A stretch of DNA of 64,000 nt, taken from positions 1 through 64,000 of IMG/VR virus record IMGVR_UViG_3300033144_003327, one strand, 5' to 3'. This stretch comes from a virus. Below the pieces are notes generated by a model. It was given only the letters and a program-made list of their open reading frames with translations, was not told where the DNA came from and did not search any database. This document shows positions 1,313 through 32,117 of the stretch, piece after piece (positions within the stretch are counted from its first letter, which is position 1; the number at the start of each line of letters is the position of its first letter). Both the position numbers and the translations under genes were made by a program.

Positions 1313-1549
1313 CGTTAGAATAGATCTTATGAGGATCCTTGACATGACACAGAGCGAGATCGAGGCAGTCATATTCAATGGCGCAACGACCTGCGAACTT
1401 CGATCTCCTCTCGATTGTTTCACAGAAGAAGAGTTGTGCGCTCTCCCCCGAAGCTCTAATTGGAGCTCATTTGATTTGAAGTTCAAAAGTTGGATGTGGC
1501 AGACAATCGACGGAATCTATTCATACACAGAACCTTATAAGACTAAGAC

Positions 1550-2086
1550 ATGTTCAATCGACTCATCGATCTGATCATAGAGTTCGTTTCACTCTTTCAG
1601 TGCTGGGTATACATTGACCATTATGAACAAGCCGTTATTCTTCGCAGGGGTAAGTTCCACAGAGTTGTAAATCCAGGGTGGCGTTGGATATGGCCGCTGG
1701 CTTTTGAAGACGTGATTGCGGAGAACGTCAAGCCTGAACCGATGTTCCTTGAAGTTCAATCGTTGGTTACCAGGGACAATTACACAGTCAATATCTGCAT
1801 TGGAATTGAGTGGAAAATCGTTGACATATTCCTCTTCGTCCTTGAATTTGAATCATCTCCGACTACCGTCAGCATGTTAGCGAGCGGCGTTGTCACTGAT
1901 CGTGTCATAGGAAAGGCGTGGAACGATATCTCTTGCGAGGATTTTGTCAAGAAGTTACGCGCCCCTATGAACCGCAAGGTTAAGAAGCGAGGCGCTGAAA
2001 TCACTGAAGTTGTCATGATTGACTGTTCAAACGGTGAGTCTATCCGCTACTGGCATGATGGGATAGACATTGACTTGGGTGAATAG
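1550..2086 (+). CDS. SPFH/band-7 (prohibitin-like) domain protein
   Basis: N-terminal hydrophobic segment then YEQAVILRRGKFHRVVNPGWRWIWPL...TRDNYTVNI pattern typical of SPFH domain. Confidence 0.4.
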   Translation: MFNRLIDLIIEFVSLFQCWVYIDHYEQAVILRRGKFHRVVNPGWRWIWPLAFEDVIAENVKPEPMFLEVQSLVTRDNYTVNICIGIEWKIVDIFLFVLEFESSPTTVSMLASGVVTDRVIGKAWNDISCEDFVKKLRAPMNRKVKKRGAEITEVVMIDCSNGESIRYWHDGIDIDLGE

Positions 2087-2121
2087 CGTACAATAGGCGT
2101 ACCTTTTCAGAGGAGAATGAA

Positions 2122-2409
2122 ATGGAGACCATTTTAAACTTTCTACCGGCGATCCTACCGATCGTTATCCCACCACTTGTGGGCGTGGTCCGTAAACAGC
2201 TCGGTGATTTGATTCCAGCGAAGTATATCCCCATGGCCCTTGGCTTAGGTGGTGCCCTAATCGGCGGCCTGGCTGGGTTAGTCGGAGTTGAAGCAGGTGA
2301 CCTTGCCACCGCAGGTATTGATGCCTGGAATGGTGCAATCATCGGTCTTGCCAGTGTCGGTGTACATCAGCTCTACAAGAAGACAACGGAAGAGACGCCA
2401 CCGGCGTAA
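2122..2409 (+). CDS. small Gly-rich membrane protein (holin-like)
   Basis: 95 aa, two or three predicted TM helices with GxxxG repeats (LGLGGALIGGLAGLVGV), charged C-terminus; RBS GAGGAGAATGAAATG. Confidence 0.35.
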   Translation: METILNFLPAILPIVIPPLVGVVRKQLGDLIPAKYIPMALGLGGALIGGLAGLVGVEAGDLATAGIDAWNGAIIGLASVGVHQLYKKTTEETPPA

Positions 2410-2633
2410 AATGAAAATGGAAGCCAGCATTTCACAATTGGAGGACGTCATGACGTAACTGTAATCCTGTAGAGGAGCAATACTCATGGCTAGACCAAGT
2501 GATGGATCCGCCCCGAAGGGCGGGAAGAAGAATCGTAAGCACGGGCGCAACCGAAAATGGTGTGCAGCATACCGCCTACGTGGACAACGTGAAAAAAACA
2601 AAGTGAAAAAAGCCAAGCGAGAAAGGAGAAAGG

Positions 2634-2987
2634 ATGAAAAGCGGAAAGGTTTGGGGGCTCACTGAAGAGCTCTTAGCGAACGGCGTACTAGAGTTTCATA
2701 GAATAGAAGTCAAGGCTGGAGGGTTCTGCTCAAAACATAAGCATCGTTTCAAATGGAACGGGTTCTTTGTCGAGAGTGGCTCCCTCCAGATCCGTGTCTA
2801 CAAAGAAGCGTATGACCTAGAAGACGACACAGTACTCAACGAGGGCGACTTCATGCAGGTCCCTCCAGGCGAGTACCATGAGTTCAGAGCTCTTGAAGAC
2901 ACAGTCGCGTTTGAATTGTACTGGGCTGAATTCAATCACCAGGACATCGTAAGAGAGAACCATGGCGGAGTAGCCAGTGAACGATAA
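2634..2987 (+). CDS. cupin-fold protein (RmlC-like)
   Basis: 117 aa; G(d)FmqvPpGeyHef motif typical of cupin barrel. Confidence 0.45.
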   Translation: MKSGKVWGLTEELLANGVLEFHRIEVKAGGFCSKHKHRFKWNGFFVESGSLQIRVYKEAYDLEDDTVLNEGDFMQVPPGEYHEFRALEDTVAFELYWAEFNHQDIVRENHGGVASER

Positions 2988-3759
2988 GATCGTTTGCACT
3001 GCTATCAACCGAAAGTACTTTCCGGGCCTGGTAGCGTTGTGGCATTCTATCCAAGCCAATTCTCCCGAAGTGGTTTTCGTTGTTCTTGCTCACGGCGATG
3101 AAAAACTCGTGCAAGACATACGCGACCTTGGAATCAAGAACGTGCTGCTGAACACGGGCTTGGATAATACGAACATTCCTACATCGTCCGAGTGGCCGAA
3201 AAAGATTCCCGCGATGTATTCACGCCTCTGGATGCCAGAAATATTCGTTGATGTTGAACGTTCTGTATGGCTTGACGCAGACACAATTGTATTGGATAGT
3301 TTAATACCCCTGTTTAAGATGAACCTTGGAGAGTACCCGATAGCCAGTACGACGTCAACAGATCCGCAGGGGAATCCGCGGTTGGTCCATACTCAAGTTG
3401 ACGGCCTGTCGAAACAAAGAGGAAATTTCCGCGGCGTTACATCAGGCGTGATCGTATTCAATCATCAGTGGTACAAAGAGAAGAGAATACTTGAACAGTG
3501 TCGTGTCATCATGAATGATTGTAAGTTGAACTTGAAGTTCGTTGTCCAGTCAGTCTTGAACATGGCACTAAGAGGTGACTACTATCCTCTTGACGAATGT
3601 TGGCAGGTGATGGGCAATCGTAAGACGATGATTGACAAGCTACCAACCGCGAAGATCGTTCACTACGTCGGATTCCTTCCCTGGGAAGAACAGACCGCAC
3701 CACAACGCATCAGGAACACAGATATCTGGAGAGAATATGCTGGTCGTCACAGCCTGTAA
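2977..3759 (+). CDS. glycosyltransferase family 8-like (nucleotide-diphospho-sugar transferase)
   Basis: N-terminal VCTAINRKYFPG, DxD region LWLDADTIVLD; paralogous to next ORF. Confidence 0.55.
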   Translation: MNDKIVCTAINRKYFPGLVALWHSIQANSPEVVFVVLAHGDEKLVQDIRDLGIKNVLLNTGLDNTNIPTSSEWPKKIPAMYSRLWMPEIFVDVERSVWLDADTIVLDSLIPLFKMNLGEYPIASTTSTDPQGNPRLVHTQVDGLSKQRGNFRGVTSGVIVFNHQWYKEKRILEQCRVIMNDCKLNLKFVVQSVLNMALRGDYYPLDECWQVMGNRKTMIDKLPTAKIVHYVGFLPWEEQTAPQRIRNTDIWREYAGRHSL

Positions 3760-4504
3760 CCGCAGATATTTTCACGGCGCTCGTGTGCTGTGGAACTCGT
3801 TCCAACATCACCACCGGGGCACTGCGGACAGGTTCTGGTGCCTAGCGTTTGGAGACGAAGAACTCGTTAACGATCTCCGACATCTCGGGATGCCTGTCGC
3901 AGATAATCCCGTGTTCCCAAGTGACTGTGTCATGAAGCGAGAGCTTACATGGCTCAATCACAACATGTACGATGACGATGCGATCAAGGCACTGTATTCT
4001 AGACTCATGTTGCCAAACCTTTTCCCTGACAGTGAAAGAGTCCTGTGGGTTGATGCTGATTCGAATTTCATTGGACCGATCTCTGAGCTTGACGATTTCA
4101 ATATGCATGGCAAGGTAATCGCCGGGCCGTTGACAAATAAAGAAGACGGTCTCAAAAAGAGAACAGGTCGAGGTGGTCAACATATCAGGACGGGAACCCT
4201 GCTCTTTGACACACAGAAATTCGTTGAAGGCGACTATATAGAGAAGTGTTTCGACGTTATGCGCCACCACTCAGACTTGATCGATGGGTCAGCATCAGAG
4301 TTCGTTATCAATTACGTCTTTAGAAACCAGGCGGCGGACCTGCCGAAACGGTATTCGTACTCTGCTAAGAGACAGGACGTCGGTAAAGGTGTCAAGCTAA
4401 TCCATTGGAGTATTATGGAGCCGTGGAATGCCAAACATACTGAACCAAAGCCACAGAAGGCTAAGGATCAAGTGGAAAGGTACTGGAAACCGTATGACTA
4501 TTAG
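3737..4504 (+). CDS. glycosyltransferase family 8-like paralog
   Basis: MLVVTACNRRYFHG..., LWVDADSNFIGP DxD motif; start chosen at internal ATG 3737 after upstream gene stop (3759). Confidence 0.55.
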   Translation: MLVVTACNRRYFHGARVLWNSFQHHHRGTADRFWCLAFGDEELVNDLRHLGMPVADNPVFPSDCVMKRELTWLNHNMYDDDAIKALYSRLMLPNLFPDSERVLWVDADSNFIGPISELDDFNMHGKVIAGPLTNKEDGLKKRTGRGGQHIRTGTLLFDTQKFVEGDYIEKCFDVMRHHSDLIDGSASEFVINYVFRNQAADLPKRYSYSAKRQDVGKGVKLIHWSIMEPWNAKHTEPKPQKAKDQVERYWKPYDY

Positions 4505-4513
4505 GAGATCACA

Positions 4514-5425
4514 ATGAAAGTTTTAGTCACAGGCGGGCAGGGTTTCATCGGTAGATACGTTTGTCAAGAGCTGAAGGATCGGGGGCATCAACCCGTCATC
4601 TTTGATAGGTATCATCGACGATTGCTGCCACCGGCCTCGGAATTCTTTCTGGGTGATGTGACAAGTCCTGCTGATTGTGCCGAAGCGTTCGCTCACGTTG
4701 ACGCGTTCATACATCTGGCAGCGGTGTTAGGGACGCAGGAGACGATACAGAACCCGACCCCCGCTGCCCACACGAACATCCTGGGCGGTCTGAATATGCT
4801 AGACGCTGCGGCGCAGTACAAGACGCCTGGCGTCTATATCGGAGTCGGCAACCATTGGATGAACAATACCTACTCAATCACAAAGACAACGATTGAACGA
4901 TTCGTTGACATGTATAACAATGAACGAGGGACGTGCATCAACATCGTACGAGCGATGAATGCCTACGGCCCGAGGCAAGAGCCAGCCCAACCCTACGGCT
5001 CCGCTCGTGTACGAAAGATCACGCCGTCGTTTATATGTAGAGCATTGAACAACGATCCGATTGAAATCTATGGTGACGGGTCACAGATTAGTGATATGGT
5101 GTACGTGGGTGACGTTGCCAAGGCTCTTGTCTTGGCGATGGAGCGAGCAGTGGACGGTATTCGTCTCAATAGAACAGTAGAGATTGGTCCAGCTGTCAGC
5201 AACACCGTTCTTGAAGTCGCCGAAATGATCAAGAGGCTCACCGCCAGCAAGAGTAATATCGTTCACTTGCCGATGCGACCGGGTGAGATACCTCATTCAA
5301 TCGTGAGTGCTGACATTGATACGCTCGAACAGATAAACATGTATCCAGCTGATCTTGCTGATCTTGAGTGGGGCATGGAGCGAACAATTGAATACTATAT
5401 AGGATACCTCCATGCCCACTCCTGA
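4514..5425 (+). CDS. NAD-dependent epimerase/dehydratase (extended SDR)
   Basis: MKVLVTGGQGFIGRYV Rossmann GxxGxxG at N-terminus; YxxxK-type SDR architecture; RBS GGAGATCACAATG. Confidence 0.7.
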   Translation: MKVLVTGGQGFIGRYVCQELKDRGHQPVIFDRYHRRLLPPASEFFLGDVTSPADCAEAFAHVDAFIHLAAVLGTQETIQNPTPAAHTNILGGLNMLDAAAQYKTPGVYIGVGNHWMNNTYSITKTTIERFVDMYNNERGTCINIVRAMNAYGPRQEPAQPYGSARVRKITPSFICRALNNDPIEIYGDGSQISDMVYVGDVAKALVLAMERAVDGIRLNRTVEIGPAVSNTVLEVAEMIKRLTASKSNIVHLPMRPGEIPHSIVSADIDTLEQINMYPADLADLEWGMERTIEYYIGYLHAHS

Positions 5426-6389
5426 GGATATTCAAGTCCATGTTCTTGACATGGAAATCAACGGTGGATGCAATTACAAATGTCAGATGTGTCCCCAGTC
5501 AGTCGGTCGCGAGAAGGCCTTCCTAAAGAAACTTCCGATGAACGTCTTCACGAAAGTGATAGACGATGCGATGCAGTACGGGCTCAAGACGGTTACACTG
5601 CACGGCAGCGGCGAGCCGTCACTGAACAGAGACTTTCCCGACTACGTGAGGGAAGTCAAAGACAGAGGTCTGCAATGTATTTCGTTCACGAATGGGCTCC
5701 GCTTAAGAGAGAAGCTGAGCGAAGAGTTGATCGATGCAGGGATCGACATCCTCCGTCTCTCTTGCATCGGGTATGACAAGCGTACCTACACGAAGTGGAT
5801 GGCTGGCGGTGACTACGACATGGTCCGCGCCAATGCGCAACGATTCGTTGACATGGCTAGGGGAACGGCTACACAGATGCACATCAACCATCTTATCATT
5901 GACCAGGATGATCTCGAATACGAAGTCAGAACGTATAGAAAGAATTGGGGACGGCACACTGGAGCGTTCAGTGAAATCTGGCTCATGCACAATTGGGCCG
6001 ACAGCGATAAGATCGATATCAAATATCTACGGCGAGGCAAAAAGAGATCCTGCGGAAGACCGTTCTCTCCTCTCTTACAGGTCCGCGCTGGCGGACTTGC
6101 CGGTAGGAGAGCCGCCGTGGTTGCCTGCTGTATGGTTCTCGGACAGGACTCCAAGGGCGTCTTGGGACATCTTGACACTGACACCATCGCTGATGTCGTT
6201 AGTTCTGCAGAGTATCACAAACTTCGTCTGGCGCATACGGAAGAAAGATTCAACGACATAGAGGTCTGCAGAAACTGCGACCAGCTTTACGACGTACCAG
6301 AGTCATTGGTCTGGAGCGATATCCCTGGCCGCGCGTACGAGCAATCAAAGAACCTCGCCACTCTTAACTTCGGTGACTACCATAAATGA
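5412..6389 (+). CDS. radical SAM enzyme with Cys-rich (SPASM-like) C-terminal region
   Basis: CNYKCQMC (CxxxCxxC) near N-terminus, GSGEPSL glycine motif, extra Cys pairs near C-terminus (CGRPF, CCMV, CRNCDQ). Confidence 0.65.
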   Translation: MPTPEDIQVHVLDMEINGGCNYKCQMCPQSVGREKAFLKKLPMNVFTKVIDDAMQYGLKTVTLHGSGEPSLNRDFPDYVREVKDRGLQCISFTNGLRLREKLSEELIDAGIDILRLSCIGYDKRTYTKWMAGGDYDMVRANAQRFVDMARGTATQMHINHLIIDQDDLEYEVRTYRKNWGRHTGAFSEIWLMHNWADSDKIDIKYLRRGKKRSCGRPFSPLLQVRAGGLAGRRAAVVACCMVLGQDSKGVLGHLDTDTIADVVSSAEYHKLRLAHTEERFNDIEVCRNCDQLYDVPESLVWSDIPGRAYEQSKNLATLNFGDYHK

Positions 6390-6413
6390 TTTGGGGCTTA
6401 TGTAAAGTGAAGG

Positions 6414-6456
6414 CTTGTGTTCGTGAGTCAAGGCTATACTATTAGAACTGAAGCTA
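6414..6456 (+). promoter_or_regulatory. class-1 conserved promoter-like element (copy 1 of 4)
   Basis: CTTGTGTTCGTGAGTCAAGGCTATACTATTAGAACTGAAG; shared with 23211, 24845, 32118; -35 like TTGTAA / -10 like TACTAT/TATTAA, followed by AGAAAGGAAG RBS. Confidence 0.45.
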
Positions 6457-6480
6457 AATAAACGTTAAGGAGAAAGGAAG

Positions 6481-7224
6481 ATGGCTAAGAAGATGGTAAA
6501 TTTAATCGCGCATTGCGGCGCCAACTACGTAGAGCGAAATGCTCTGTCTGGTCCGGTACTGCCTGCGTCCACAGAAACATTCACGCCTATCGGGCATGAC
6601 TATTTCGTAGACCTGGTTGAAGATCAACTCAACGAACGCAACCTGAAAGTCGTTAACAGCGGTTTCGCTCTCGGCAATGAAGGTTCCAACATGTTTGGTG
6701 TGTTGGAAATCGGTCACGCTAAGAACGATGAGTACGCAACGATTATCGGTCTGCGTAACAGCCATATCAAATGGTTCGCAGCGTCTATCGCATGTGGAAG
6801 CGGCGTGTTCGTATGTGACAATATGGCCTTCAGTGGTGAAGTCACAGTCGGTCGAAAGCATACGTCACTCATTCTTGATGACCTGCCTTCGATTATCAAC
6901 GAGGCAATCGATGGAGTCATCACGTTGAAAGACGAGCAGGCTAATCGTTACGAGGCCTACAAAGGACGCCAGCTGGCAACCAATGAGGCTGAGTTCTTGG
7001 TAATCGAGATGCTGCGCCGGGGTGTTATCAACACCGGTCGCGTCGAGAAGGTCATCGCTGAGTGGGACGCACCCACGCATCGTCAGTTCTCAAAGACTGG
7101 TGACAGCGGTTGGAGAATGTTCAACGCAGCCACCGAGGCGCTGAAGGGATTGTCAATGAATGAGTTGGCACCCCGCACTCGGAACCTGCACACCTTGATG
7201 GACGAGGTCTGCATCGCTGCATAA
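6481..7224 (+). CDS. DUF932-like phage/plasmid protein (tentative)
   Basis: LRNSHIKWFAASIACGSGVFVCDNMAF resembles conserved NSH...G...C.N core of DUF932 family; otherwise uncharacterised. Confidence 0.3.
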   Translation: MAKKMVNLIAHCGANYVERNALSGPVLPASTETFTPIGHDYFVDLVEDQLNERNLKVVNSGFALGNEGSNMFGVLEIGHAKNDEYATIIGLRNSHIKWFAASIACGSGVFVCDNMAFSGEVTVGRKHTSLILDDLPSIINEAIDGVITLKDEQANRYEAYKGRQLATNEAEFLVIEMLRRGVINTGRVEKVIAEWDAPTHRQFSKTGDSGWRMFNAATEALKGLSMNELAPRTRNLHTLMDEVCIAA

Positions 7225-7498
7225 AGAAGTCTAAGGCGAGGCTGCCGTGTTCAGTCCGCATAGGCGATCAGCTGGCACCTTAGGGTAGCGGGGCGCACGG
7301 GCCCTGCCAGCACCAAGACTCGGGACCTACCTGGCAGAAGATTGAAGTCAGAATAGGATCCTATTAAACGGGGCTGGTCCTCCCAAGTAAAATGGACTTA
7401 GGTGGCCCCGACAAGAGCGGGAAGGGGATGGTTCGATAGGATAACTCGACCCAGTAACCGGACACTCAGGGGCCACCCCTTATTCACAAGGTAATGAT

Positions 7499-7792
7499 AT
7501 GTCTGAACTAACAAAAATTATCACCGTCACATGCCCCTCGAATGTTGATTGGGGGCTTGACTTCACGAGTGACAGCGGTGTTGAGTATCACATGACGTTC
7601 TCTTTGGAGCGCGGATACTCATGCAACTGCAAGGGCTTCACATATCGCGGCTGGTGTAAACACGTCAGGGATACGGAACTAACTCTACAGCGGTGTGGCT
7701 GGGGCGAAGATTCCTACGCGAACACTATACGTGATGACGAATTCTGTCCTGAATGTGGGGAGAAGACTCACGCATTCTACATTGGAGTCTAG
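7499..7792 (+). CDS. SWIM zinc-finger protein
   Basis: CNCKGFTYRGWCKH = CxCx(n)CxH SWIM signature; second CPEC pair at C-terminus. Confidence 0.5.
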   Translation: MSELTKIITVTCPSNVDWGLDFTSDSGVEYHMTFSLERGYSCNCKGFTYRGWCKHVRDTELTLQRCGWGEDSYANTIRDDEFCPECGEKTHAFYIGV

Positions 7793-7838
7793 TCTTGTAT
7801 TGACCGCTAGATTTCTGTACAGTGTCATCCAAAGTTAG

Positions 7839-8315
7839 GTGAAAGGAATAATGAGAAAGAAAGACTTAAAAGTGCGCCATTATATTATTGGTCGAGTCAA
7901 CCACAAGGTTGCTATCCTCGGTCACTGCTCGTCAGTTGACAATGCTACACGAGCCTCTATCGTGTTGGACGGGATACCCTGCTCCTTCCATACCGATCTC
8001 TACAACAGCCTAGATGCCGAAGATTTCTGGACCCTGTATGAAGACGTCATGGGAGTGAAATTGAGTAGACAACTCATCACAAACCAGATGGCAATCGATC
8101 TTTGGGACAAGTTAGAGGTGACAAAGATACCACACCTCATAAAACCCGGCGCCAAAAAAGTGCTGCGTGAACTCTACTCCTATCCTGGGATGAGTTGGTC
8201 AAAAGAAGAACTCATGATGTTCGTGGCCGGCGGCAAGTGGGACACGATTAGAACGGGTATGAGTGACATGAAATTTAAAATCAAAAAAGTAAGAGGTCAA
8301 TATGTTCGGCAATAA
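7839..8315 (+). CDS. hypothetical protein
   Basis: 158-aa ORF with RBS GAAAGGAATAATG; no recognisable motif. Confidence 0.3.
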   Translation: MKGIMRKKDLKVRHYIIGRVNHKVAILGHCSSVDNATRASIVLDGIPCSFHTDLYNSLDAEDFWTLYEDVMGVKLSRQLITNQMAIDLWDKLEVTKIPHLIKPGAKKVLRELYSYPGMSWSKEELMMFVAGGKWDTIRTGMSDMKFKIKKVRGQYVRQ

Positions 8316-11455: not shown

Positions 11456-11460
11456 AGGCG

Positions 11461-13122: not shown

Positions 13123-13133
13123 AGGAGAATGAA

Positions 13134-13679: not shown

Positions 13680-13716
13680 ATTTCGTCTCGCGATGATTAT
13701 CAAATTAAGGATCCTG

Positions 13717-15423: not shown

Positions 15424-16251
15424 ATGCACGTCGTAATTCACGCAAACAACGTTCCGTGGCAGGTGGAGTACCTGGACCGGTTCATAAAGGGGTTCGAGAA
15501 ACACGGGATGACAGTGGGGACGGTTCCAAATGACGTAGCGATACCTGATGCGATAAACGTCGTCTTCGCCAACAACTCGTGGAAGAAGACAGTCGCTACC
15601 TGTAGCCTGACTGGAATCCCTCTGCTGACAGTCAACCGCTGCTTTTTTGGATCGCGCCACGATATGGTCGCTATAGGGTGGAAGGGGTTCAACGGTGACG
15701 CTGACTTCAGTCTCCAACCGTTCATGCCGGATGACAGGTGGCTGAAACACGGTTTTCAAATGCCTGAATGGCAGGAAGAGAAGGATGGATATGTCTTAAT
15801 CTGTGGTGAATTCAGAGACATGTCTAACTGGTATCGTTCCCTTGACAAAGAGTTGCAGGGGATGAATGTTCGGTTTAGGCCACATCCGTTCACGAACAAA
15901 ATACCCGCGGCGTGGGAACGTGCGCCAGGCAAATTACAGGACGATATCGAAACGGCGCTGGAAGGCGCGCGGGTCTGTATCACGTACGATTCAATCGCAG
16001 GCTGTGACGCAGTACTAGCCGGCGTACCGTCTGTCGCTTACGGCAGAAAGAGCATGGCACGACCAGTCAGTTGTTCCAGCTGGAAGGAGTACTTGGCTGG
16101 CAAGGCACTGCCGAAACGACTGCCGTGGGCGAGCCGGCTCGCATATTGCCAATGGGACCACGAGGAGATTGAAAATGGAGACTTTTGGACACATCTCAGT
16201 TCCGGAAAATCTTATACCCCAGCCGCCATTCGACATTCGGCCCGCCCTTGA
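15424..16251 (+). CDS. hypothetical protein (possible GT-B-type transferase)
   Basis: 275 aa; GYVLICGE...RPHPF...VCITYDSIAGCDAVLAGVPSV resembles C-terminal Rossmann half of GT-B/TagF-like transferases; weak. Confidence 0.3.
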   Translation: MHVVIHANNVPWQVEYLDRFIKGFEKHGMTVGTVPNDVAIPDAINVVFANNSWKKTVATCSLTGIPLLTVNRCFFGSRHDMVAIGWKGFNGDADFSLQPFMPDDRWLKHGFQMPEWQEEKDGYVLICGEFRDMSNWYRSLDKELQGMNVRFRPHPFTNKIPAAWERAPGKLQDDIETALEGARVCITYDSIAGCDAVLAGVPSVAYGRKSMARPVSCSSWKEYLAGKALPKRLPWASRLAYCQWDHEEIENGDFWTHLSSGKSYTPAAIRHSARP

Positions 16252-17788: not shown

Positions 17789-19775
17789 TCGATGGGACTC
17801 TATTGGCGTGGCGTGGGAAACGCCCACCAAAGAGAAGAAGAAAGGCGGGGGATATATCAGCACAGTGAGACCAGCGATACCTGAGACACAGTGGAACAGG
17901 CCAACTGAATTTCCAAATCTATCAGCGGCGAAGATGATTGCAGTTGATTTAGAGACACGCGACCCGCAACTGCTACAAAAAGGCCCGGGTCCTCGACGCA
18001 AGGAGGAAGAAGGCGGGTTCATCGCAGGTATAGCGGTTGGCGTTGGCCCGCGTGATGGCGAACAATGGTACTTCCCGATGCGCCATGAAAGTGGCGGCGC
18101 CAATTTTGATCCAGATATGGTTCTTATGTGGGCCAGGGATCAATTATGCAGGCCTAATCAACCGAAACTAGGTGCCAACCTCATGTACGATTTGGACTGG
18201 CTCCAAGACGCGGACGTCCCTGTAGAAGGCCCGTTTTATGACGTCCAAGTAGCAGAACCCCTAATTGATGAGAACGCTTTCAGTTATGCTCTCGGCAAAC
18301 TGGCTGACAAGTATGTCGGCGAAGGAAAGACCGAAGACGCGATGTACGAGTGGCTCTCTCTCGCATTCGGCGGCCAGCCTACACGTAGAGACCAAGGCGG
18401 AAACATCTGGAGAGCTCCCGCACAACTCGCGGGACCATATGCGGAAAGTGACGTTAGACTACCCTTCCTGATATGGGAAGAACAACAGAAAATAATCAAG
18501 CACGAAAACCTGGAGAAGGTGCTTGATCTGGAGACTCGTTTGATTCCGCTCCTATTGGCGATGAAAATTCGCGGCGTAAGGGTTGACACAAGTCAAGCGG
18601 CTGAACTTGACGAGGTCCTGGTCAAAAAGGCAACCGAATTCAGAGAACGGCTCATGGAATTCAACCTTGATCCCCAGAGCCGAGACTCGTTGGAGGGATA
18701 TTGCAATGAGCGCGGCATAAAATTCAAACGAACACCTGCTGGTAACTCATCATTTCCTGGCAAGTGGTTAGAGAAACATCAAGACGAGAATCTGAATCTA
18801 GCATATCAAGTTAGGAGGTTAGAGAAACATGCGGGTACATTTATTGAAGGAACGGTGCTTGGGAACGCTATTAACAACAGAATTCACGGACAATTCCATC
18901 AACTGCGAAACGATGATTATGGCGCGGTATCAGGAAGATTCAGTAGCTCTAATCCCAATCTCCAAAATATCCCGGCGCGAGACGAAGAGCTTGGGCCTCT
19001 CATTCGCGGACTATTTCTGCCTGAGCCTGATGAGGTTTGGTACTGCGATGATTGGTCGCAAATTGAATACCGGCTCCTCGTTCATTACGCAGTTGGTGAT
19101 GGTGCCGATCGAACCAGACGAAAATATTGCGACGACCCGACGACCGACTTCCACAAATACGTCGCCCAAATAGCCGACATCGATCGCAAAGAGGCGAAGA
19201 ACATCAACTTCGGCCTCGTGTACGGAATGGGCGAGCCGGCAATGGCGGCCAACATGGGAAGGTCACTCAAAGAAATCAAACCGATATTCAACGAATACCA
19301 CAAAGAGCTCCCGTTTGTGAGAGAGACCTACAACAAGGTCCAGAAGAGAGCTGAACGGCGTGGGTACATTCACACTCTTTTCGGTCGCCGACGACGCTTC
19401 AATTTGTGGGAACCGAAGAATTGGAACGAAGCGCGGGCCAACACCGCCAAACCTCACGCGGTAGCGATCGAGAAGTGGGGCGAGCAGTGGATTAAAAGAG
19501 CTGGTGGCCACAAGGCGTTAAACGCTCTACTTCAAGGCGGCGCGGCTGACATCATGAAAGTAGCGATGGTCGACATCTGGGAGAGCGGCGTCTGTGACGT
19601 TCTTGGCGCACCTCTGCTGACTGTCCATGATGAATTGAACTGGTCAGCACCGCAGACAAAAGAAGCGGATGAAGCCCACCAGACTGCTTTAGAAATTATG
19701 GAAACCTGCGTAGACTTGCGCATACCGCTGAAAGTAACGACAGGAAAAGGAGACAGTTGGGGTGCCGCCAAATGA
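17784..19775 (+). CDS. polA: DNA polymerase I family A with 3'-5' exonuclease domain
   Basis: IAVDLETRD (exo I), RKEAKNINFGLVYGMG (motif B), LTVHDELNWS (motif C). Confidence 0.9.
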   Translation: MSRWDSIGVAWETPTKEKKKGGGYISTVRPAIPETQWNRPTEFPNLSAAKMIAVDLETRDPQLLQKGPGPRRKEEEGGFIAGIAVGVGPRDGEQWYFPMRHESGGANFDPDMVLMWARDQLCRPNQPKLGANLMYDLDWLQDADVPVEGPFYDVQVAEPLIDENAFSYALGKLADKYVGEGKTEDAMYEWLSLAFGGQPTRRDQGGNIWRAPAQLAGPYAESDVRLPFLIWEEQQKIIKHENLEKVLDLETRLIPLLLAMKIRGVRVDTSQAAELDEVLVKKATEFRERLMEFNLDPQSRDSLEGYCNERGIKFKRTPAGNSSFPGKWLEKHQDENLNLAYQVRRLEKHAGTFIEGTVLGNAINNRIHGQFHQLRNDDYGAVSGRFSSSNPNLQNIPARDEELGPLIRGLFLPEPDEVWYCDDWSQIEYRLLVHYAVGDGADRTRRKYCDDPTTDFHKYVAQIADIDRKEAKNINFGLVYGMGEPAMAANMGRSLKEIKPIFNEYHKELPFVRETYNKVQKRAERRGYIHTLFGRRRRFNLWEPKNWNEARANTAKPHAVAIEKWGEQWIKRAGGHKALNALLQGGAADIMKVAMVDIWESGVCDVLGAPLLTVHDELNWSAPQTKEADEAHQTALEIMETCVDLRIPLKVTTGKGDSWGAAK

Positions 19776-20622
19776 AATTGTTCCCAATATCTATCTTGGC
19801 GAAACTGGCGTCCTGCTCGCCTCCGGGCCTTCTCTTACAGAAGAGCAAGTGGAATTCATTCGTCCATACCACGAACGTGGCGAAATCCGTGTTTTCGGAC
19901 TCAATGACACCTACAAAATTTGTGACTTTCTCGATGTCTTTTATGCCTGCGACCCAAGGTGGTTCGAAGAGAACCTCGACGTTCTTGAGCATCCGTGTAC
20001 CCAAAAATGGACCCAAGATGAACGCGGTGCGGCGAAGTACAAAATTAACCGTATCAAAGGTAGTGGTGGGAAAGGACTCAGCAAAAAGGAAAATCATATC
20101 AATTTCGGATCCAACAGCGGTTTTCAGTTACTGAATCTGGCATGGCACTATGGCATACGACAATTCATTTTATTGGGATACAACATGGATGTCCCTACAG
20201 GGATGCAACAACATTTCTTCGGAAAACATCCCAAACCACTCAACCAAGGGAACAACTATAGAGGATTCGCGAGATCGTTCGCGCAAATTGAAAAATCCGT
20301 CAGTGACCTGATAATCAATTGTACCTACCCGTCTAAACTGGATTGTTTCAGGAAGATGGAATTAGAGGAAGCACTAAATGGAGAACACAGAAGTCGCGGA
20401 CCTGCTGAGCAAAGCACCCCCGAAAAATCAACCGTATCCGGACCATCCAATATCCCCCATCTTCAAGGGGTATACGGGGGTACTCGTCGCTACTGGACCT
20501 TCGTTAAACAGAGCACAATTAGACCTATTGAGAGAATTGCATACGGAGGACCTGGTCAAGGTCTTCTCGATCAACAATGTCTACCAGGTGTACCCGTGGA
20601 CGGATGTCCATCTGTCATGTGA
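19762..20622 (+). CDS. MptE-like / DUF115 (Maf-like) protein, paralog 1; C-terminal 75 codons overlap paralog 2 out of frame
   Basis: GVLLASGPSL motif, FFGKHPKPL; homology to paralog 2 ends near 20400 but no stop until 20622. Confidence 0.5.
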   Translation: MPPNEIVPNIYLGETGVLLASGPSLTEEQVEFIRPYHERGEIRVFGLNDTYKICDFLDVFYACDPRWFEENLDVLEHPCTQKWTQDERGAAKYKINRIKGSGGKGLSKKENHINFGSNSGFQLLNLAWHYGIRQFILLGYNMDVPTGMQQHFFGKHPKPLNQGNNYRGFARSFAQIEKSVSDLIINCTYPSKLDCFRKMELEEALNGEHRSRGPAEQSTPEKSTVSGPSNIPHLQGVYGGTRRYWTFVKQSTIRPIERIAYGGPGQGLLDQQCLPGVPVDGCPSVM

Positions 20623-21151
20623 CGGCCCGTGGTGGCGATGGTACTGGCCAAAAGAACCTGACCTAAGAAACCTGCCCTGCCCGAAATACACCTGGTACCC
20701 CGAAATTGCGAAAGCGTTCGGAATAGATTACATTAAGGCTATCGTGAAAGATGGCCTGTCAACCGATCCCGGCATCGTTCATATCAATCACGGATCAGGT
20801 CCGATGATGATGAACCTAGCGTACCTTTACGGCATCAGGAATGTGGTCCTGCTAGGCCACGATATGAAATTCGCCCCGGACTACAACGCAGCGAAAAGGG
20901 ATCCTGGATCATTTCCACGACACTATTTCGGTGAGTATCCGAAACCATTACAACATTGGCCTTCGGTCAAAGTAAAACCTGACGGAAAGCTAGAAGGTCT
21001 GATTGAGACGTACAGGAAAATGCCGTTCGATGAGCTCGGTATGACAGTCACGAATTGTACGCCTGAATCAGCATTAGAATTCAATTACATGGATTGGAAG
21101 GAGATGGCAGATGGAATTAGGACCGCATCGTCCGGTACACGGGGAGCCTGA
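20378..21151 (+). CDS. MptE-like / DUF115 (Maf-like) protein, paralog 2
   Basis: GVLVATGPSL, YFGEYPKPL; aligns along length with paralog 1. Confidence 0.5.
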   Translation: MENTEVADLLSKAPPKNQPYPDHPISPIFKGYTGVLVATGPSLNRAQLDLLRELHTEDLVKVFSINNVYQVYPWTDVHLSCDGPWWRWYWPKEPDLRNLPCPKYTWYPEIAKAFGIDYIKAIVKDGLSTDPGIVHINHGSGPMMMNLAYLYGIRNVVLLGHDMKFAPDYNAAKRDPGSFPRHYFGEYPKPLQHWPSVKVKPDGKLEGLIETYRKMPFDELGMTVTNCTPESALEFNYMDWKEMADGIRTASSGTRGA

Positions 21152-21800
21152 TTACAAGTGGTATCACCACAAGTTAAAGGGAGTAGATCGTGAACGATGG
21201 ATGCTACCTCAAGACGAAGGGATGTATCAAAACTCCTTTGGTTTCGTTCTGGACAACATTGAAAGAACCGTTAAACACATCCCCGAAGACGACAGACAAT
21301 TGTGCGTTCAAGCCGGCGGGTGTTTCGGACTCTGGCCCTACCTTTACTCACTCTATTTTGAGGAGGTCGTTACGTACGAGCCCATGCCTGTAAATCTCAA
21401 ATGCCTGAAAAGAAATATCAGCGACAGGAAAAACATCACTGCATTCAGAAATGCTCTCAGTGATAAAGAAGAAATGGTTGACATGACCTATTCCAAACCG
21501 AATTTGAACAGCTACGGCGCGCACCACACGAAGTCTGAGGGTAGAATACAGGCATGGCCATTGGACGAATTCTATTGGGAACGGCTCGATCATCTTCAGT
21601 TGGACGTAGAGGGTGACGAGTTGAAAGTCTTGAAAGGTGCGGAACGGGTCATCGGAGAGTTCACTCCCTTAATCACTCTTGAGGTTAGGAACCTGCCGCA
21701 CATGACGATCCCTGCCGCCCGAGCTGAAACATGGTTGAAAAAGACATTCGGGTACAGGGAAATTGATAGGTTTGCCGGAGATAGGTTGTACTCAGTATGA
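21111..21800 (+). CDS. FkbM-family SAM-dependent methyltransferase
   Basis: VQAGGCFG SAM-binding motif and LQLDVEGDELKVLKGAE FkbM signature. Confidence 0.65.
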   Translation: MELGPHRPVHGEPDYKWYHHKLKGVDRERWMLPQDEGMYQNSFGFVLDNIERTVKHIPEDDRQLCVQAGGCFGLWPYLYSLYFEEVVTYEPMPVNLKCLKRNISDRKNITAFRNALSDKEEMVDMTYSKPNLNSYGAHHTKSEGRIQAWPLDEFYWERLDHLQLDVEGDELKVLKGAERVIGEFTPLITLEVRNLPHMTIPAARAETWLKKTFGYREIDRFAGDRLYSV

Positions 21801-22486
21801 AAGAATCAATGACGAAAGAACAATGGCATAAAACATACGGATGGCAGGAACACAACCATACCTATTGGCCTGCCGATTTCAAGTTCTTATGGCCTAATGG
21901 CGATAAGCTACTCCACGGTGACATACCGACTTTGGCACATTTGGACGAATTTGTGTTTCCTCTCGTACCTGAGAAGCGTGTCGCAGTCCAAGCGGGTGGA
22001 GCTATGGGCATGTGGGCCAAGAGAATGGCCCAAGAATTCGGTGTCGTGTATACGTTTGAGCCAAATCCGCAGAGCTTCTATTGCTGTAGTTTCAATTGCC
22101 CGGAGGAAAATGTCGTGCCTTTCCATGCTGCCTTGGGAGCTGAGCCGGCTCTAATCAAAGTGAGCACGCCGCACCGTGAGCAGAATTACGGGGCCAACCG
22201 TGTCACTGGCGCGGGGCACGTTCCCGTCATGACTATCGACAGTCTAGAGCTTGAGCATTGCGACCTCCTGATGTTAGACATCGAGGGATACGAATTGTTC
22301 GCCTTGCAAGGTGCGTTGGAGACGATTAAGAGATGCAAACCTGTCATCGTTCTGGAGGACAAAGGATGCTCCACAGAGTTCGGATATCAAAAAGGGCGCG
22401 TTGAAAGATTCCTGCAGAGAAAGGCGAAGTACCGAACCCATTCACGATTCCATGGCGATAGGGATGTGATACTATGTCCAGAATGA
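21797..22486 (+). CDS. FkbM-family SAM-dependent methyltransferase (paralog)
   Basis: VQAGGAMG and LLMLDIEGYELFALQGA. Confidence 0.65.
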   Translation: MKESMTKEQWHKTYGWQEHNHTYWPADFKFLWPNGDKLLHGDIPTLAHLDEFVFPLVPEKRVAVQAGGAMGMWAKRMAQEFGVVYTFEPNPQSFYCCSFNCPEENVVPFHAALGAEPALIKVSTPHREQNYGANRVTGAGHVPVMTIDSLELEHCDLLMLDIEGYELFALQGALETIKRCKPVIVLEDKGCSTEFGYQKGRVERFLQRKAKYRTHSRFHGDRDVILCPE

Positions 22487-23208
22487 TCACTCAATCAACG
22501 TTGACCACCAACGGTGTCGATTTAAAAACACCTCCCCTGCCGGTGCCACCGCGCGTCACTTCCGGGCCTTCCCCAGCTCATGTGATCGTGGTGTGCGTCT
22601 GGTGGGGGAGTCAATACGGTGTGGAATATGTCGAGAAGCTGAGGAACTCTGTCGCGAGAAATCTCACGATACCCCATGATTTTCTCTGTGTGACGTCCCA
22701 CGTCGGCCCCGACGGTGTCACACGTATTAGTCCACCACGTGGAGGTGAAGGTTGGTGGCAAAAGGTGAACCTATTCGATCCCCTGATGTTCCCCTCCGGT
22801 GTACGAGTCCTCTATTTAGATTTGGATGTGGTCGTGGTTGGCTCTCTCGATAAGCTCGCCTCATCGAATGAACCATTCTGTATGATTGAGAATTACGGCC
22901 CCAACAAAGGCCACGCCGCGCACAATTCATCGATCATGTTGTGGACGCCCGATGAGAAGACCGCAAGGATCTACAACCTGTTCAGTGATGATGTCCCAAA
23001 ACAGCTACACGGTGACCAGTGTTGGATATGGCGCGTAATGAGAGACGACATAACTGATTTTCATCAGAACATGGCCGTGTCATATAAGTATGAAAAAGCG
23101 TCACCGAATTGGCATCACGCTGACGACAAGACTGCTGTCGTCGTGTTCCACGGGCAGCCAAAGCCCCACCAGGTAAAGGACCAAATGATTGTCCAGAATT
23201 GGCAATGA
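22474..23208 (+). CDS. putative GT-A-fold glycosyltransferase
   Basis: VIVVCVWWGSQYG N-terminal beta-strand and LYLDLDVVVVGSLD DxD-like motif. Confidence 0.35.
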   Translation: MSRMITQSTLTTNGVDLKTPPLPVPPRVTSGPSPAHVIVVCVWWGSQYGVEYVEKLRNSVARNLTIPHDFLCVTSHVGPDGVTRISPPRGGEGWWQKVNLFDPLMFPSGVRVLYLDLDVVVVGSLDKLASSNEPFCMIENYGPNKGHAAHNSSIMLWTPDEKTARIYNLFSDDVPKQLHGDQCWIWRVMRDDITDFHQNMAVSYKYEKASPNWHHADDKTAVVVFHGQPKPHQVKDQMIVQNWQ

Positions 23209-23932: not shown

Positions 23933-23942
23933 GGAGAATACC

Positions 23943-24838: not shown

Positions 24839-24844
24839 GAACCG

Positions 24845-24884: not shown

Positions 24885-24910
24885 TTAACGCACATAGAAA
24901 GGAAAATGAA

Positions 24911-29746: not shown

Positions 29747-29783
29747 TCAAGAACGGTGTATGTGCGGGGAGATTACTAACAAA

Positions 29784-32096: not shown

Positions 32097-32117
32097 TTTT
32101 CAAGTTATGTTAAGAAA

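What the first reader, a model, noticed from the sequence alone, without database searches (positions are those of the whole stretch)
2634..6389. Sugar-tailoring module: cupin, two GT8 glycosyltransferases, SDR epimerase/dehydratase and radical-SAM (SPASM-like) enzyme
This is a contiguous, co-oriented block of nucleotide-sugar-type chemistry in a phage. A radical SAM with a Cys-rich C-terminal domain next to an epimerase/dehydratase and a cupin is typical of deoxy/amino-sugar tailoring. The two GT8 paralogs could transfer the sugar to DNA (hypermodified base), to virion proteins, or to host LPS.
Basis: partly seen in the sequence, partly recalled or inferred. Interest (0 to 1): 0.6.

Follow-up and report, generated by a model that had tools for sequence, protein, structure and literature searches.

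The report
Phage sugar-building operon, part of larger island
A phage carries a real five-gene sugar-chemistry operon that is one piece of a scattered, mix-and-match glycan-building gene set shared by several phage lineages; it probably attaches a small, Kdo-type acid-sugar glycan to a protein or to the host surface, not to DNA.

Summary
Window 2634-6389 carries five co-oriented genes with 9-23 nt overlaps or gaps: cupin, two GT8 glycosyltransferases (DxD intact), an NAD-dependent SDR and a radical-SAM enzyme. All five pass Pfam thresholds.

- The SDR looks like a UDP-hexose 4-epimerase. It has no dehydratase signature, and no aminotransferase is present.
- The radical-SAM enzyme is twitch-like: five invariant C-terminal Cys, not the seven-Cys SPASM motif. 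Its closest fold is BlsE.
- It belongs to a large uncharacterised family. In 22 of 28 informative loci with 54-69% identical homologues (the named ones are bacterial genome bins), it sits with CMP-Kdo genes (kdsA, kdsB, kdsC).

The operon is mosaic. Relatives carry cupin+rSAM only, cupin+GT8+SDR only, or one to three GT8 copies.

It is also incomplete. The window holds partner genes at 15424-16251 and 19762-23208: two Maf-like DUF115 proteins, two FkbM methyltransferases and a third GT-A. In other phages these lie contiguous with the rSAM or with GT8+SDR.

DNA is an unlikely acceptor. No hydroxymethyl-pyrimidine enzyme was detected, and relatives lacking the 7-deazaguanine cluster keep the cassette. 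The real acceptor, virion protein or host envelope, is unresolved.

The parts
2634..2987 (+). Small cupin (117 aa) with candidate metal ligands His35, His37 and His82. It is the constant first gene of the cassette in all close relatives.
   Evidence: Pfam Cupin_2 7.6e-9. There is a weak WbuC-family hit, 28 bits against a cutoff of 42. It is 46-48% identical to the cupin at the same position in L007 and L090 by direct tblastn; cupins also occupy that position in L109, L110 and L111 (Pfam Cupin_2; family-probe hits). A 157-aa cupin follows the rSAM in four bacterial loci.
2977..3759 (+). GT8a: short (260 aa) GT-A glycosyltransferase of family GT8. This is the GT8 type that is conserved in relatives.
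   Evidence: PF01501 5e-25. DxD D100/D102 is invariant. Only 12 homologues were found by the word-indexed search of 5.8 billion proteins, all on phage-sized contigs. It is 54-58% identical to the single GT8 of L090, L109 and L110.
3737..4504 (+). GT8b: second GT8 (255 aa from ATG 3737; the ORF opens at TTG 3632). It is a divergent paralogue, 28% identical to GT8a.
   Evidence: PF01501 4e-17. The VDADS DxD motif is present. It is 57% identical to the third GT8 of L111. Only 25 cluster representatives reach E<=1e-10 among 1.84 billion.
4514..5425 (+). Extended-SDR NAD-dependent nucleotide-sugar enzyme, most like a UDP-hexose 4-epimerase. In these phages it always travels with GT8a.
   Evidence: PF01370 6e-41. 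The best solved relative is Thermotoga UDP-glucose 4-epimerase 4zrm, 1.6e-27. It has GGQGFIG and Y120-SIT-K124 but no [ST]DE motif. It is 50-52% identical to actinophage proteins that sit next to GTs.
5412..6389 (+). Radical-SAM enzyme with a twitch-like auxiliary-cluster domain. It is a member of a large uncharacterised family.
15424..16251 (+). orf275: protein of unknown fold or family that co-travels with the glycan genes.
   Evidence: No Pfam, PHROG or NCBIfam hit. It is 31% identical to the gene immediately downstream of the rSAM in jumbo-phage contig L089. A homologue lies within about 5 kb of the DUF115 genes in 12 of 16 viral contigs, often adjacent to the DUF115/GT3 genes, and in L114.
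19762..20622 (+). DUF115/MptE-like paralogue 1 with an ASGPS nucleotide-binding motif. Its last ~80 aa overlap the next gene.
   Evidence: 29% identical to the next gene and 27-30% to the L088/L089 DUF115 proteins. Alignment A5.
20378..21151 (+). DUF115/MptE-like paralogue 2: a Maf-like putative (non)ulosonic-acid transferase.
   Evidence: PHROG 4603 'alpha-2,3-sialyltransferase' 5.8e-15. The PF01973 hit is sub-threshold, but most homologues carry PF01973. The AF2 model has pLDDT 94.2. The only PDB fold match with E<=0.001 is Maf flagellin glycosyltransferase 5mu5, 2e-5. It is 58-60% identical to the gene next to the rSAM in L088/L089.
21111..21800 (+). FkbM-family methyltransferase a.
   Evidence: PF05050 1.4e-8. 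It is 38% identical to the methyltransferase immediately upstream of the rSAM in L089.
21797..22486 (+). FkbM-family methyltransferase b.
   Evidence: PF05050 8e-17. It is 32% identical to paralogue a.
22474..23208 (+). GT3: third GT-A glycosyltransferase, distantly GT8-like, with an LDLD motif.
   Evidence: PHROG 1962 glycosyltransferase 4.5e-20. The PF01501 hit is just under threshold at the DxD region. It is 65% identical to the GT two genes from the rSAM in L088/L089. The DxD aligns with GT8a/b.

Best explanation
The operon is the nucleotide-sugar supply and extension arm of a modular, cytoplasmic phage glycan-assembly island. In this genome the island is split over three sites: 2634-6389, 15424-16251 and 19762-23208.

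Shown:
- The enzyme families are as assigned.
- The catalytic motifs are intact.
- The same gene families are physically contiguous in other, unrelated phage contigs.

Inferred, in order of decreasing support:
1. The SDR interconverts a UDP-hexose (4-epimerase type) to feed the retaining GT8 enzymes. The GT8 enzymes add one to three alpha-linked hexoses.
2. The twitch radical-SAM enzyme, probably with the cupin, abstracts a hydrogen from a Kdo-type 3-deoxy-ulosonic acid (free, 8-phosphate or CMP-activated) supplied by the host. The product would be an oxidised, epimerised, dehydrated or decarboxylated derivative.
3. The Maf-like DUF115 proteins transfer that CMP-activated acid sugar onto the acceptor. 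GT3 and the GT8s extend it, and the FkbM enzymes O-methylate it.
4. Every component is a soluble protein, there is no flippase, polymerase or lipid-carrier transferase, and the only solved relative of the DUF115 proteins is a flagellin O-glycosyltransferase. So the acceptor is most likely a protein in the infected cell, with virion proteins the leading candidate.
For: Family assignments. DxD conservation. SDR motifs and nearest structures.

rSAM:
- Invariant Cys pattern.
- Confident model.
- The nearest fold is BlsE, and the other carbohydrate-acting radical enzymes BtrN and DesII are among the close folds, interleaved with peptide maturases.
- After de-duplication, 22 of 28 loci with 54-69% identical rSAM and at least 3 kb of upstream sequence carry kdsA, kdsB or kdsC within 6 kb.
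- Those neighbours pass NCBIfam cutoffs as true KdsA, KdsB and KdsC.
- Four bacterial loci continue with cupin, sugar C-methyltransferase, SDR, GT4 and GT1.

Island:
- In jumbo-phage contigs L088/L089 the order is DUF115 - FkbM - rSAM - orf275-like - MT - GT3. These are 58-65%, 38%, 71-74%, 31% and 65% identical to the window genes.
- L114 reads DUF115 - rSAM - orf275 - GT3.
- L197 has GT8a-type (38%) and SDR (62%) inserted between the DUF115 genes and GT3 - orf275.
- All 16 further viral contigs carry DUF115, 15 with GT3, 12 with orf275 and 8 with FkbM nearby.
- At least 12 contig lengths recur in both the rSAM and the DUF115 homologue lists, taken as shared contigs.

The DUF115 model matches Maf 5mu5 as its only hit with E<=0.001. 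Relatives carry a true kdsA. This is consistent with a demand for Kdo.
Against: - No substrate, product or acceptor was observed. Every chemical step is inferred from family and neighbourhood.
- The Kdo link comes from homologues at 54-69% identity; the named ones are bacterial genome bins, mostly Rhodospirillales, so shared ancestry inflates the count. The window itself has no kds gene.
- Phage relatives with only cupin+GT8+SDR (L109, L110) or only cupin+rSAM (L007) show that the sub-cassettes can work without each other.
- The Maf fold match is modest: TM 0.48, E 2e-5. The window DUF115 protein is below the Pfam threshold on its own.
- The genes lie among replication genes, not next to structural genes as in actinophage virion glycosylation.
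- No Ser/Thr-rich tails stand out on capsid or tube proteins.
- GT8 enzymes are classic LPS-core transferases, and relatives carry a PagL-like gene. Both point to the envelope rather than to virion proteins.
Confidence: 0.45

Rival explanations
1. Host-envelope remodelling. The enzymes act on the cytoplasmic face of the inner membrane, on lipid A-core or a lipid-linked surface-polysaccharide unit. They would add hexoses (GT8), a modified Kdo and methyl groups. Infected cells and their debris would then stop adsorbing progeny or competing phages. This is the usual reading of 'cell-wall synthesis and modification' genes in aquatic phages.
For: - GT8a's only NCBIfam hit is the LPS 3-alpha-galactosyltransferase model, far below its cutoff.
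- Cellular rSAM homologues sit in Kdo and surface-polysaccharide loci with GT4 and GT1.
- Close relatives encode KdsA and a PagL-like protein.
- The literature interprets such phage genes this way (PMC7029224, PMC12801897).
Against: - The same island, at 37-65% identity, occurs in a ~66-kb phage, in jumbo-phage contigs and in many unrelated viral contigs; T4-like marine phages carry the rSAM with DUF115-like genes. That breadth is hard to reconcile with acceptor-specific LPS-core chemistry.
- No membrane component, flippase or Gtr-type gene was detected.
- The GT8s (~255 aa) lack the C-terminal extension of LPS-core GT8 enzymes (reading from lengths).
- The only solved relative of the DUF115 protein with E<=0.001 glycosylates a protein.
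Confidence: 0.3
2. DNA hypermodification. The GTs glycosylate a modified base in phage DNA, either a 7-deazaguanine derivative made by the adjacent Que/DpdA cluster or a hydroxymethyl-pyrimidine. The SDR would serve as the partner epimerase, as in the GT+epimerase pairs of Pyle et al.
For: - The operon lies 2 kb upstream of a complete preQ0/preQ1 + DpdA set, among replication genes.
- Phage GT+epimerase pairs are proven DNA glycosylation systems, and Kdo-modified cytosine exists (bioRxiv 10.1101/2023.12.21.572611).
Against: - Relatives L109 and L110 lack the Que cluster in the ~9 kb downstream where L007, L090 and the window have it, yet keep cupin-GT8-SDR. Only about 20 kb of each contig was fetched.
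- No Que gene is detected within the fetched flanks of most island-bearing contigs or of the bacterial loci.
- No thymidylate-synthase-like hydroxymethylase, TET/JBP or C5-methyltransferase was detected in the window.
- The known DNA GT-A enzymes are JGT/TarP-like, not GT8.
- No glycosylated 7-deazaguanine has been described in the papers searched.
Confidence: 0.08
3. The radical-SAM enzyme, with the cupin, is not a sugar enzyme here. It would be a peptide/protein maturase (SPASM-type) or an extra step of 7-deazapurine chemistry, and it only sits next to GT8-SDR because that spot is an insertion hot-spot.
For: - Cupin+rSAM occur without GT8/SDR in L007, immediately upstream of the Que genes.
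- The best NCBIfam hits are a W-cofactor maturase and MoaA, N-terminal half only.
Against: - 54-69% identical homologues are embedded in kdsA-kdsB-kdsC and polysaccharide loci with no Que genes.
- In jumbo phages and L114 the rSAM is flanked by DUF115, methyltransferases and GT3.
- No precursor-peptide-like partner is conserved.
Confidence: 0.07

Closest known systems
Flagellin glycosylation by Maf (DUF115) transferases with CMP-pseudaminic/legionaminic acid (Campylobacter, Aeromonas, Magnetospirillum Maf, PDB 5mu5)
   Same: Both use a DUF115/MptE-like transferase with a GxGPS-type motif. Both are linked to a CMP-activated 2-keto-3-deoxy acid-sugar pathway. All components are soluble and cytoplasmic.
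   Different: The phage proteins are ~255 aa single-domain versions of a ~630-aa enzyme. The linked pathway is Kdo (C8), not Pse/Leg (C9). A radical-SAM step, FkbM methyltransferases and GT8 extension are added. The acceptor is unknown.
Carbohydrate-acting twitch/SPASM radical-SAM enzymes BlsE (7vob), BtrN (4m7t) and DesII (8hzv)
   Same: BlsE is the best sequence and fold match, with BtrN and DesII among the close matches, interleaved with peptide maturases. The Cys spacing 214/239/286/289 resembles BtrN's single auxiliary cluster; the BtrN ligand positions are recalled from memory, not checked here.
   Different: Identity is only 16-22%. All NCBIfam family cutoffs are missed by a wide margin. 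An extra invariant Cys is present (the CC pair). The genomic partners are Kdo genes, not aminoglycoside or nucleoside-antibiotic genes.
Phage GT + partner sugar-epimerase pairs that glycosylate 5hmC DNA (Pyle et al., bioRxiv 10.1101/2023.12.21.572611)
   Same: In both, an adjacent GT-A transferase and a sugar epimerase travel together as a cassette. Both sit among replication genes in metagenomic phages.
   Different: Those GTs are JGT/TarP-like and always accompany a 5mYOX or ThyS-type enzyme. Here the GTs are GT8 and no such enzyme was detected.
Virion glycosylation of actinobacteriophages (Freeman et al. 2023, cited in PMC12619734) and the 'cell-wall synthesis and modification' AMG clusters of marine myophages (PMC7029224, PMC12801897)
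   Same: All are phage-encoded GTs with nucleotide-sugar enzymes, methyltransferases and radical-SAM cassettes in variable regions. SDR homologues at 50-52% identity lie next to GTs in Streptomyces and Microbacterium phages.
   Different: The actinophage GTs are not GT8 by BLAST and, as recalled from Freeman et al. (not checked here), lie near structural genes. For the marine clusters no function has been shown. The DUF115-FkbM-GT3-orf275 core is not described in the papers I could search.

Membership tests
Glycosyltransferase family 8 (PF01501, retaining GT-A) | Profile match above the Pfam gathering score | tested here: met
   GT8a scores 89 bits and GT8b 63 bits against a cutoff of 24.3. 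GT3 (22474-23208) scores 23.3, just below.
Glycosyltransferase family 8 (PF01501, retaining GT-A) | DxD metal/nucleotide-sugar motif and C-terminal His...PW motif | tested here: met
   D100/D102 are invariant across GT8a, GT8b, ten homologues and GT3. HYVGFLPW and HWSIMEPW were read directly from the sequences.
Glycosyltransferase family 8 (PF01501, retaining GT-A) | Alpha-retaining transfer from a UDP-hexose to a defined acceptor | not testable with these tools
   This needs an enzyme assay.
LPS-core GT8 enzymes (WaaI/WaaJ/RfaI type) | NCBIfam equivalog score | tested here: not met
   GT8a scores 25.4 bits against a cutoff of 461 for the LPS 3-alpha-galactosyltransferase model. GT8b has no hit.
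Extended SDR nucleotide-sugar epimerase/dehydratase (PF01370) | GxxGxxG NAD motif and YxxxK catalytic pair | tested here: met
   GGQGFIG at residue 7 and YSITK at residue 120. PF01370 6e-41.
Extended SDR nucleotide-sugar epimerase/dehydratase (PF01370) | Catalytic Ser/Thr about 25 residues before the Tyr | tested here: inconclusive
   There is an ~18-residue deletion relative to 4zrm between the Ser/Thr strand and the Tyr, so the alignment there is ambiguous.
NDP-hexose 4,6-dehydratase (RmlB type) | [ST]DE acid/base motif and equivalog score | tested here: not met
   No [ST]DE motif. TIGR01181 scores 100 bits against a cutoff of 365.
UDP-glucose 4-epimerase GalE | Equivalog score | tested here: not met
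   TIGR01179 scores 85 bits against a cutoff of 262. It works like an epimerase-type SDR but is not a GalE orthologue.
Radical SAM superfamily (PF04055) | CX3CX2C cluster motif | tested here: met
   C20, C24 and C27 are invariant in 39-42 sequences.
SPASM subfamily (two auxiliary clusters) | Seven-Cys motif CX9-15GX4C...CX2CX5CX3C...C | tested here: not met
   There are only five conserved C-terminal Cys, with CX2C but no CX5CX3C. PF13186 matches only its C-terminal two-thirds. This is best described as twitch-like.
BlsE / BtrN / DesII families | Family-level sequence score | tested here: not met
   TIGR04466 (BlsE) scores 30 bits against a cutoff of 400. PDB phmmer E-values are only 9e-6 and 2e-5, over the N-terminal third. 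The resemblance is at fold level only.
Maf / DUF115 (PF01973) glycosyltransferases | Profile match and Maf-like fold | tested here: inconclusive
   The window protein scores 22.2 bits against a cutoff of 34.6. Most homologues carry PF01973. Foldseek's only hit with E<=0.001 is Maf 5mu5, with TM 0.48.
Phage DNA-glycosylation systems (T4 a/b-GT; 5mYOX/ThyS-associated GTs) | A hydroxymethyl-pyrimidine-forming enzyme in the genome | tested here: not met
   No thymidylate-synthase-like, TET/JBP or C5-MTase family was found in Pfam scans covering the window's ORFs.
Seroconversion Gtr-type systems | GtrA flippase, GtrB bactoprenol transferase and a membrane GT | tested here: not met
   No such families appear in the Pfam or PHROG scans of the window. 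Divergent membrane proteins could be missed.

The most novel reading that the evidence does not exclude
Phages of several unrelated lineages share a portable protein-glycosylation system. Lineages carrying the DUF115-GT3-orf275 core are this ~66-kb phage, jumbo phages and many uncultured viral contigs. T4-like marine phages carry the rSAM with DUF115-like genes but not the GT3/orf275 core. Small Maf-like DUF115 transferases would attach a Kdo-type acid sugar to virion proteins. That sugar would first be rewritten by a previously uncharacterised twitch radical-SAM enzyme, whose cellular orthologues end kdsA-kdsB-kdsC operons. The glycan would then be extended by short GT8 enzymes and O-methylated. 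This would be both a new viral glycosylation pathway and a new radical sugar-modifying enzyme family.
Probability: 0.2. Interest if true: 0.75.

Novelty: new variant of a known kind. Interest (0 to 1): 0.5.

Why it matters
Phage-encoded glycan genes are widely catalogued as 'LPS-related auxiliary genes', but almost none has a known product or acceptor.

This locus turns a vague annotation into a defined, testable gene set of eleven genes with interchangeable cassettes. It has three concrete handles:
1. A radical-SAM family of more than 500 members, 54-80% conserved between phages and cellular genomes (Rhodospirillales and related bins). It is tied to CMP-Kdo synthesis and has no assigned reaction.
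2. Minimal (~255 aa) Maf-like transferases.
3. A GT8 + epimerase cassette whose copy number varies from 0 to 3 between otherwise syntenic phages.

If the acceptor is the virion, glycan shielding would extend from actinophages to phages of Gram-negative hosts. That bears on receptor masking, immune recognition and phage engineering. If the acceptor is the envelope, the system is a compact lytic-phage route to surface conversion.

Tried and rejected
- Near-identity DNA search of 2400-6600 against 50,697 phage records found no match.
- The only INPHARED phage with the rSAM (C48C1, 40% identity) has different neighbours, so no synteny could be used.
- A GT8a pattern scan of IMG/VR found nothing.
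- The terminase look-up was not on record.
- Promoter and terminator scans of 1300-8400 were not above shuffled expectation: 12 against 7.5±2.7 and 8 against 6.1±2.3. No operon boundaries can be claimed from them.
- The cupin has no informative solved relative; the best E-value is 0.011.
- A search for Ser/Thr-rich tails on structural proteins, as a hint of virion glycosylation, found nothing decisive.
- Literature searches for a radical-SAM/Kdo link, for DUF115 in phages and for glycosylated 7-deazaguanine found no description.
- I considered that the rSAM+cupin pair serves the adjacent 7-deazaguanine pathway and rejected it. Homologues in bacteria, jumbo phages and T4-like phages have no Que neighbours.
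- I considered that the MptE-like genes are pterin kinases linked to FolE/QueD and rejected it. The DUF115 module occurs mostly in contigs where no Que genes are detected within the fetched flanks.

Full report
**1. The observation**

Window 2634-6389 holds five + strand ORFs. Each matches its Pfam family above the curated threshold:
- 2634-2987: Cupin_2.
- 2977-3759: Glyco_transf_8, 5e-25.
- 3632/3737-4504: Glyco_transf_8, 4e-17.
- 4514-5425: NAD-dependent epimerase/dehydratase, 6e-41.
- 5412-6389: Radical_SAM, 9e-15, plus SPASM, 1e-6.

Neighbouring genes overlap by 11, 23 and 14 nt or are 9 nt apart. Simple promoter and terminator scans give no signal above shuffled sequence, so the operon reading rests on spacing alone.

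The window is a phage genome. It encodes a major capsid protein, tail tube, tail terminator, small terminase, Mu-F-like protein, PolA and a clamp-like processivity factor. There is no near relative in GenBank phages. The best PolA matches are ~44% identical.

Two details need correction. The second GT8 most likely begins at ATG 3737. The radical-SAM tail is twitch-like, not a full SPASM domain (section 2).

**2. The individual enzymes**

GT8a and GT8b:
- They share 28% identity.
- Both keep the DxD motif, which is invariant in the alignment with ten homologues.
- Both keep the C-terminal His...PW motif.
- They are unusually short, ~255 aa.
- They belong to sparsely populated clades. The word-indexed search of 5.8 billion proteins found 12 relatives of GT8a. 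GT8b has 25 cluster representatives at E<=1e-10 among 1.84 billion.

The SDR:
- It has GGQGFIG and Y120xxxK124 but no [ST]DE dehydratase motif.
- It aligns best with Thermotoga UDP-glucose 4-epimerase 4zrm and with UDP-GlcNAc 4-epimerases. It carries an ~18-residue deletion before the catalytic Tyr.
- It misses every NCBIfam equivalog cutoff.
- Homologues at 50-52% identity sit next to glycosyltransferases in Streptomyces and Microbacterium phages.

The radical-SAM protein:
- It has the CX3CX2C motif plus five invariant C-terminal cysteines: C214, the C239-C240 pair and C286xxC289.
- That is enough for one auxiliary cluster and one spare Cys.
- It is not a member of any characterised family.

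**3. What the radical-SAM family keeps company with**

The family is large and tightly conserved: 536 hits, of which the 120 best-scoring are 57-80% identical. Three contexts emerge.

(a) Cellular genomes. The named ones are genome bins, mostly Rhodospirillales, but also Magnetococcales, Puniceicoccaceae and other Alphaproteobacteria bins.
- The gene ends a compact kdsA - CBS - kdsB - kdsC operon.
- Those neighbours pass NCBIfam cutoffs as genuine Kdo-8-P synthase, CMP-Kdo synthetase and Kdo-8-P phosphatase.
- After de-duplication, 22 of 28 loci with at least 3 kb of upstream sequence carry at least one kds gene within 6 kb.
- Four loci continue with cupin - sugar C-methyltransferase - SDR - GT4 - GT1.

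(b) Jumbo-phage contigs (L088, L089) and L114. The rSAM is flanked by a DUF115/MptE-like gene, an FkbM methyltransferase, a 266-aa unknown, further methyltransferases and a GT-A. A true kdsA and a cupin lie 7 kb away.

(c) T4-like marine phage contigs, with 45-54% identity.
- The rSAM lies between the gp59 loader and a ~214-aa ORF.
- From my reading of that ORF's sequence it looks like a 2OG-Fe(II) oxygenase. It was not scanned against any profile library.
- One or two genes with a GNG(E/K)S motif follow it. They are distantly related to the DUF115 group (hhalign 83%).

**4. The operon is mosaic and incomplete**

Close relatives of this phage share its helicase, Band_7 protein and DUF932-like gene. 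They differ between cupin and the DUF932-like gene, as the table shows.

| Locus | Genes between cupin and DUF932-like gene |
|---|---|
| L007 | cupin - rSAM |
| L090 | cupin - GT8a - SDR - rSAM |
| L111 | cupin - three GT8 - SDR - rSAM |
| L109, L110 | cupin - GT8a - SDR, no rSAM |

L109 and L110 also lack the 7-deazaguanine cluster in the ~9 kb fetched downstream, where the other relatives have it. They carry kdsA and a PagL-like gene instead.

So the cupin is constant. GT8a and the SDR move together. The rSAM and the extra GT8 copies are optional.

The window also contains homologues of the jumbo-phage rSAM neighbours at other sites:
- orf275 (15424-16251), 31% identical.
- Two DUF115 paralogues (19762-20622 and 20378-21151), the second 58-60% identical.
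- Two FkbM methyltransferases (21111-22486), 30-38% identical.
- GT3 (22474-23208), 65% identical.

Sixteen further viral contigs all carry DUF115. Fifteen have GT3, twelve have orf275 and eight have FkbM nearby, mostly in one run. In L197 a GT8a-type gene and the SDR (62%) are inserted inside that cluster. At least twelve contig lengths recur in both the rSAM and the DUF115 homologue lists. I take these as shared contigs.

I therefore treat the eleven genes as one functional island with interchangeable cassettes.

**5. The DUF115 proteins**

- The window protein alone is below the Pfam threshold, but most homologues carry PF01973.
- PHROGs labels it as an alpha-2,3-sialyltransferase family.
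- A very confident model (pLDDT 94.2) has a single PDB match with E<=0.001. That match is the Maf flagellin glycosyltransferase of Magnetospirillum (5mu5, 2e-5). Archaeal MptE kinase follows at 4e-3.
- From general knowledge, Maf enzymes are understood to transfer CMP-activated nonulosonic acids to flagellin Ser/Thr.

**6. Mechanism**

The best-supported reading is a soluble, cytoplasmic glycan-assembly line with four inferred steps.
1. Host CMP-Kdo-type donor is used. In some relatives it is boosted by a phage kdsA.
2. The donor is modified by the twitch radical-SAM enzyme, possibly with the cupin.
3. It is transferred by the Maf-like DUF115 proteins.
4. The glycan is extended by GT3 and the GT8s, using a UDP-hexose supplied by the epimerase-type SDR. 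It is then O-methylated by the FkbM enzymes.

Only the family assignments, motifs and gene linkages are shown. Every chemical step is inferred. The exact radical reaction (oxidation, epimerisation, dehydration or decarboxylation) cannot be chosen. The spare invariant Cys next to a cluster ligand would fit a hydrogen-donor role as in radical epimerases, but that is speculation.

**7. The acceptor**

DNA is disfavoured for four reasons:
- The cassette persists in relatives where no Que/DpdA cluster is seen.
- No Que gene is detected within the fetched flanks of most island-bearing contigs.
- No hydroxymethyl-pyrimidine-forming enzyme was detected in the window.
- The proven DNA GT-A enzymes are JGT/TarP-like and always accompany 5mYOX or ThyS.

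Between protein (virion) and host envelope the evidence is split.
- For a phage-autonomous protein target: the Maf relationship, the lack of any membrane component, and the spread of the island across unrelated phage types.
- For LPS: the GT8 family's usual role, the polysaccharide context of the cellular homologues, and kdsA and PagL-like genes in relatives.
- Neutral: no Ser/Thr-rich tails stand out on the structural proteins.

**8. Comparison and novelty**

Phage GT and sugar-nucleotide clusters, including radical-SAM cassettes, are known as a class in marine myophages, without assigned function (PMC7029224, PMC12801897). Phage GT + epimerase pairs are proven for DNA. Virion glycosylation is proven in actinophages (cited in PMC12619734).

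The following features were not described in any paper I could find:
- the DUF115 - FkbM - GT3 - orf275 core;
- its link to a Kdo-associated radical-SAM family;
- the variable GT8 + SDR cassette.

I rate it a new variant of a known kind. Interest is moderate. It is a clean, testable system rather than a surprise.

Noticed in passing
window 8302-14783: A complete 7-deazaguanine DNA-modification gene set lies here: QueE, QueD, QueC, FolE, a MazG/PRA-PH-like protein, an HD dNMP-phosphatase-like protein, a QueF-like protein and a DpdA-like transglycosylase (phrog_887, 5e-43). Unannotated small genes are interspersed. Relatives L109 and L110 show no such cluster in the ~9 kb fetched downstream, where the other relatives have it; they carry kdsA plus a PagL-like gene there instead.
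   Followed up: partly
window 19762-20622 and 20378-21151: The two DUF115 paralogues overlap by 245 nt. The last ~80 residues of the first do not align with any homologue. This could be an over-extended ORF, a frameshift or a real overlap.
   Followed up: no
window 1550-2409: A Band_7/SPFH protein and a holin-like membrane protein (Phage_holin_5_2, 1.3e-8) lie immediately upstream of the operon, far from the structural genes; no endolysin was looked for. The Band_7 gene is conserved at this position in relatives.
   Followed up: no
window 2486-2665: A 59-aa, extremely basic ORF (Lys/Arg-rich) overlaps the start of the cupin gene. It is unclear whether it is a real gene.
   Followed up: no
L001 8001-8951 and L002 2393-3307 (Streptomyces phage Frankenweenie gp170, Microbacterium phage Magritte gp5): These actinophage proteins are 52% identical to the window SDR. 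They are annotated 'UDP-glucose dehydrogenase', but they are epimerase-type extended SDRs next to glycosyltransferases. This looks like a mis-annotation.
   Followed up: partly
L010-L023, L170-L190 (T4-like marine viral contigs): A conserved insert lies downstream of the gp59 loader (with ThyX in some contigs) and upstream of a ~294-aa ORF. It holds the radical-SAM homologue (45-54% identity), a ~214-aa ORF that looks like a 2OG-Fe(II) oxygenase by eye (not scanned against any profile library), and one or two DUF115-like genes with a GNG(E/K)S motif.
   Followed up: partly
window 23273-42000: A Fic/DOC-family protein and several HTH regulators are present among mostly unannotated small ORFs. 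GC skew peaks at 34-38 kb and turns negative at 38-40 kb.
   Followed up: no
L109 15189-15680, L110 16039-16527, end of L007: Relatives encode a signal-peptide-bearing PagL-like (weak Pfam hit) outer-membrane-type protein right after kdsA or DpdA. No homologue was found in the window by tblastn.
   Followed up: partly
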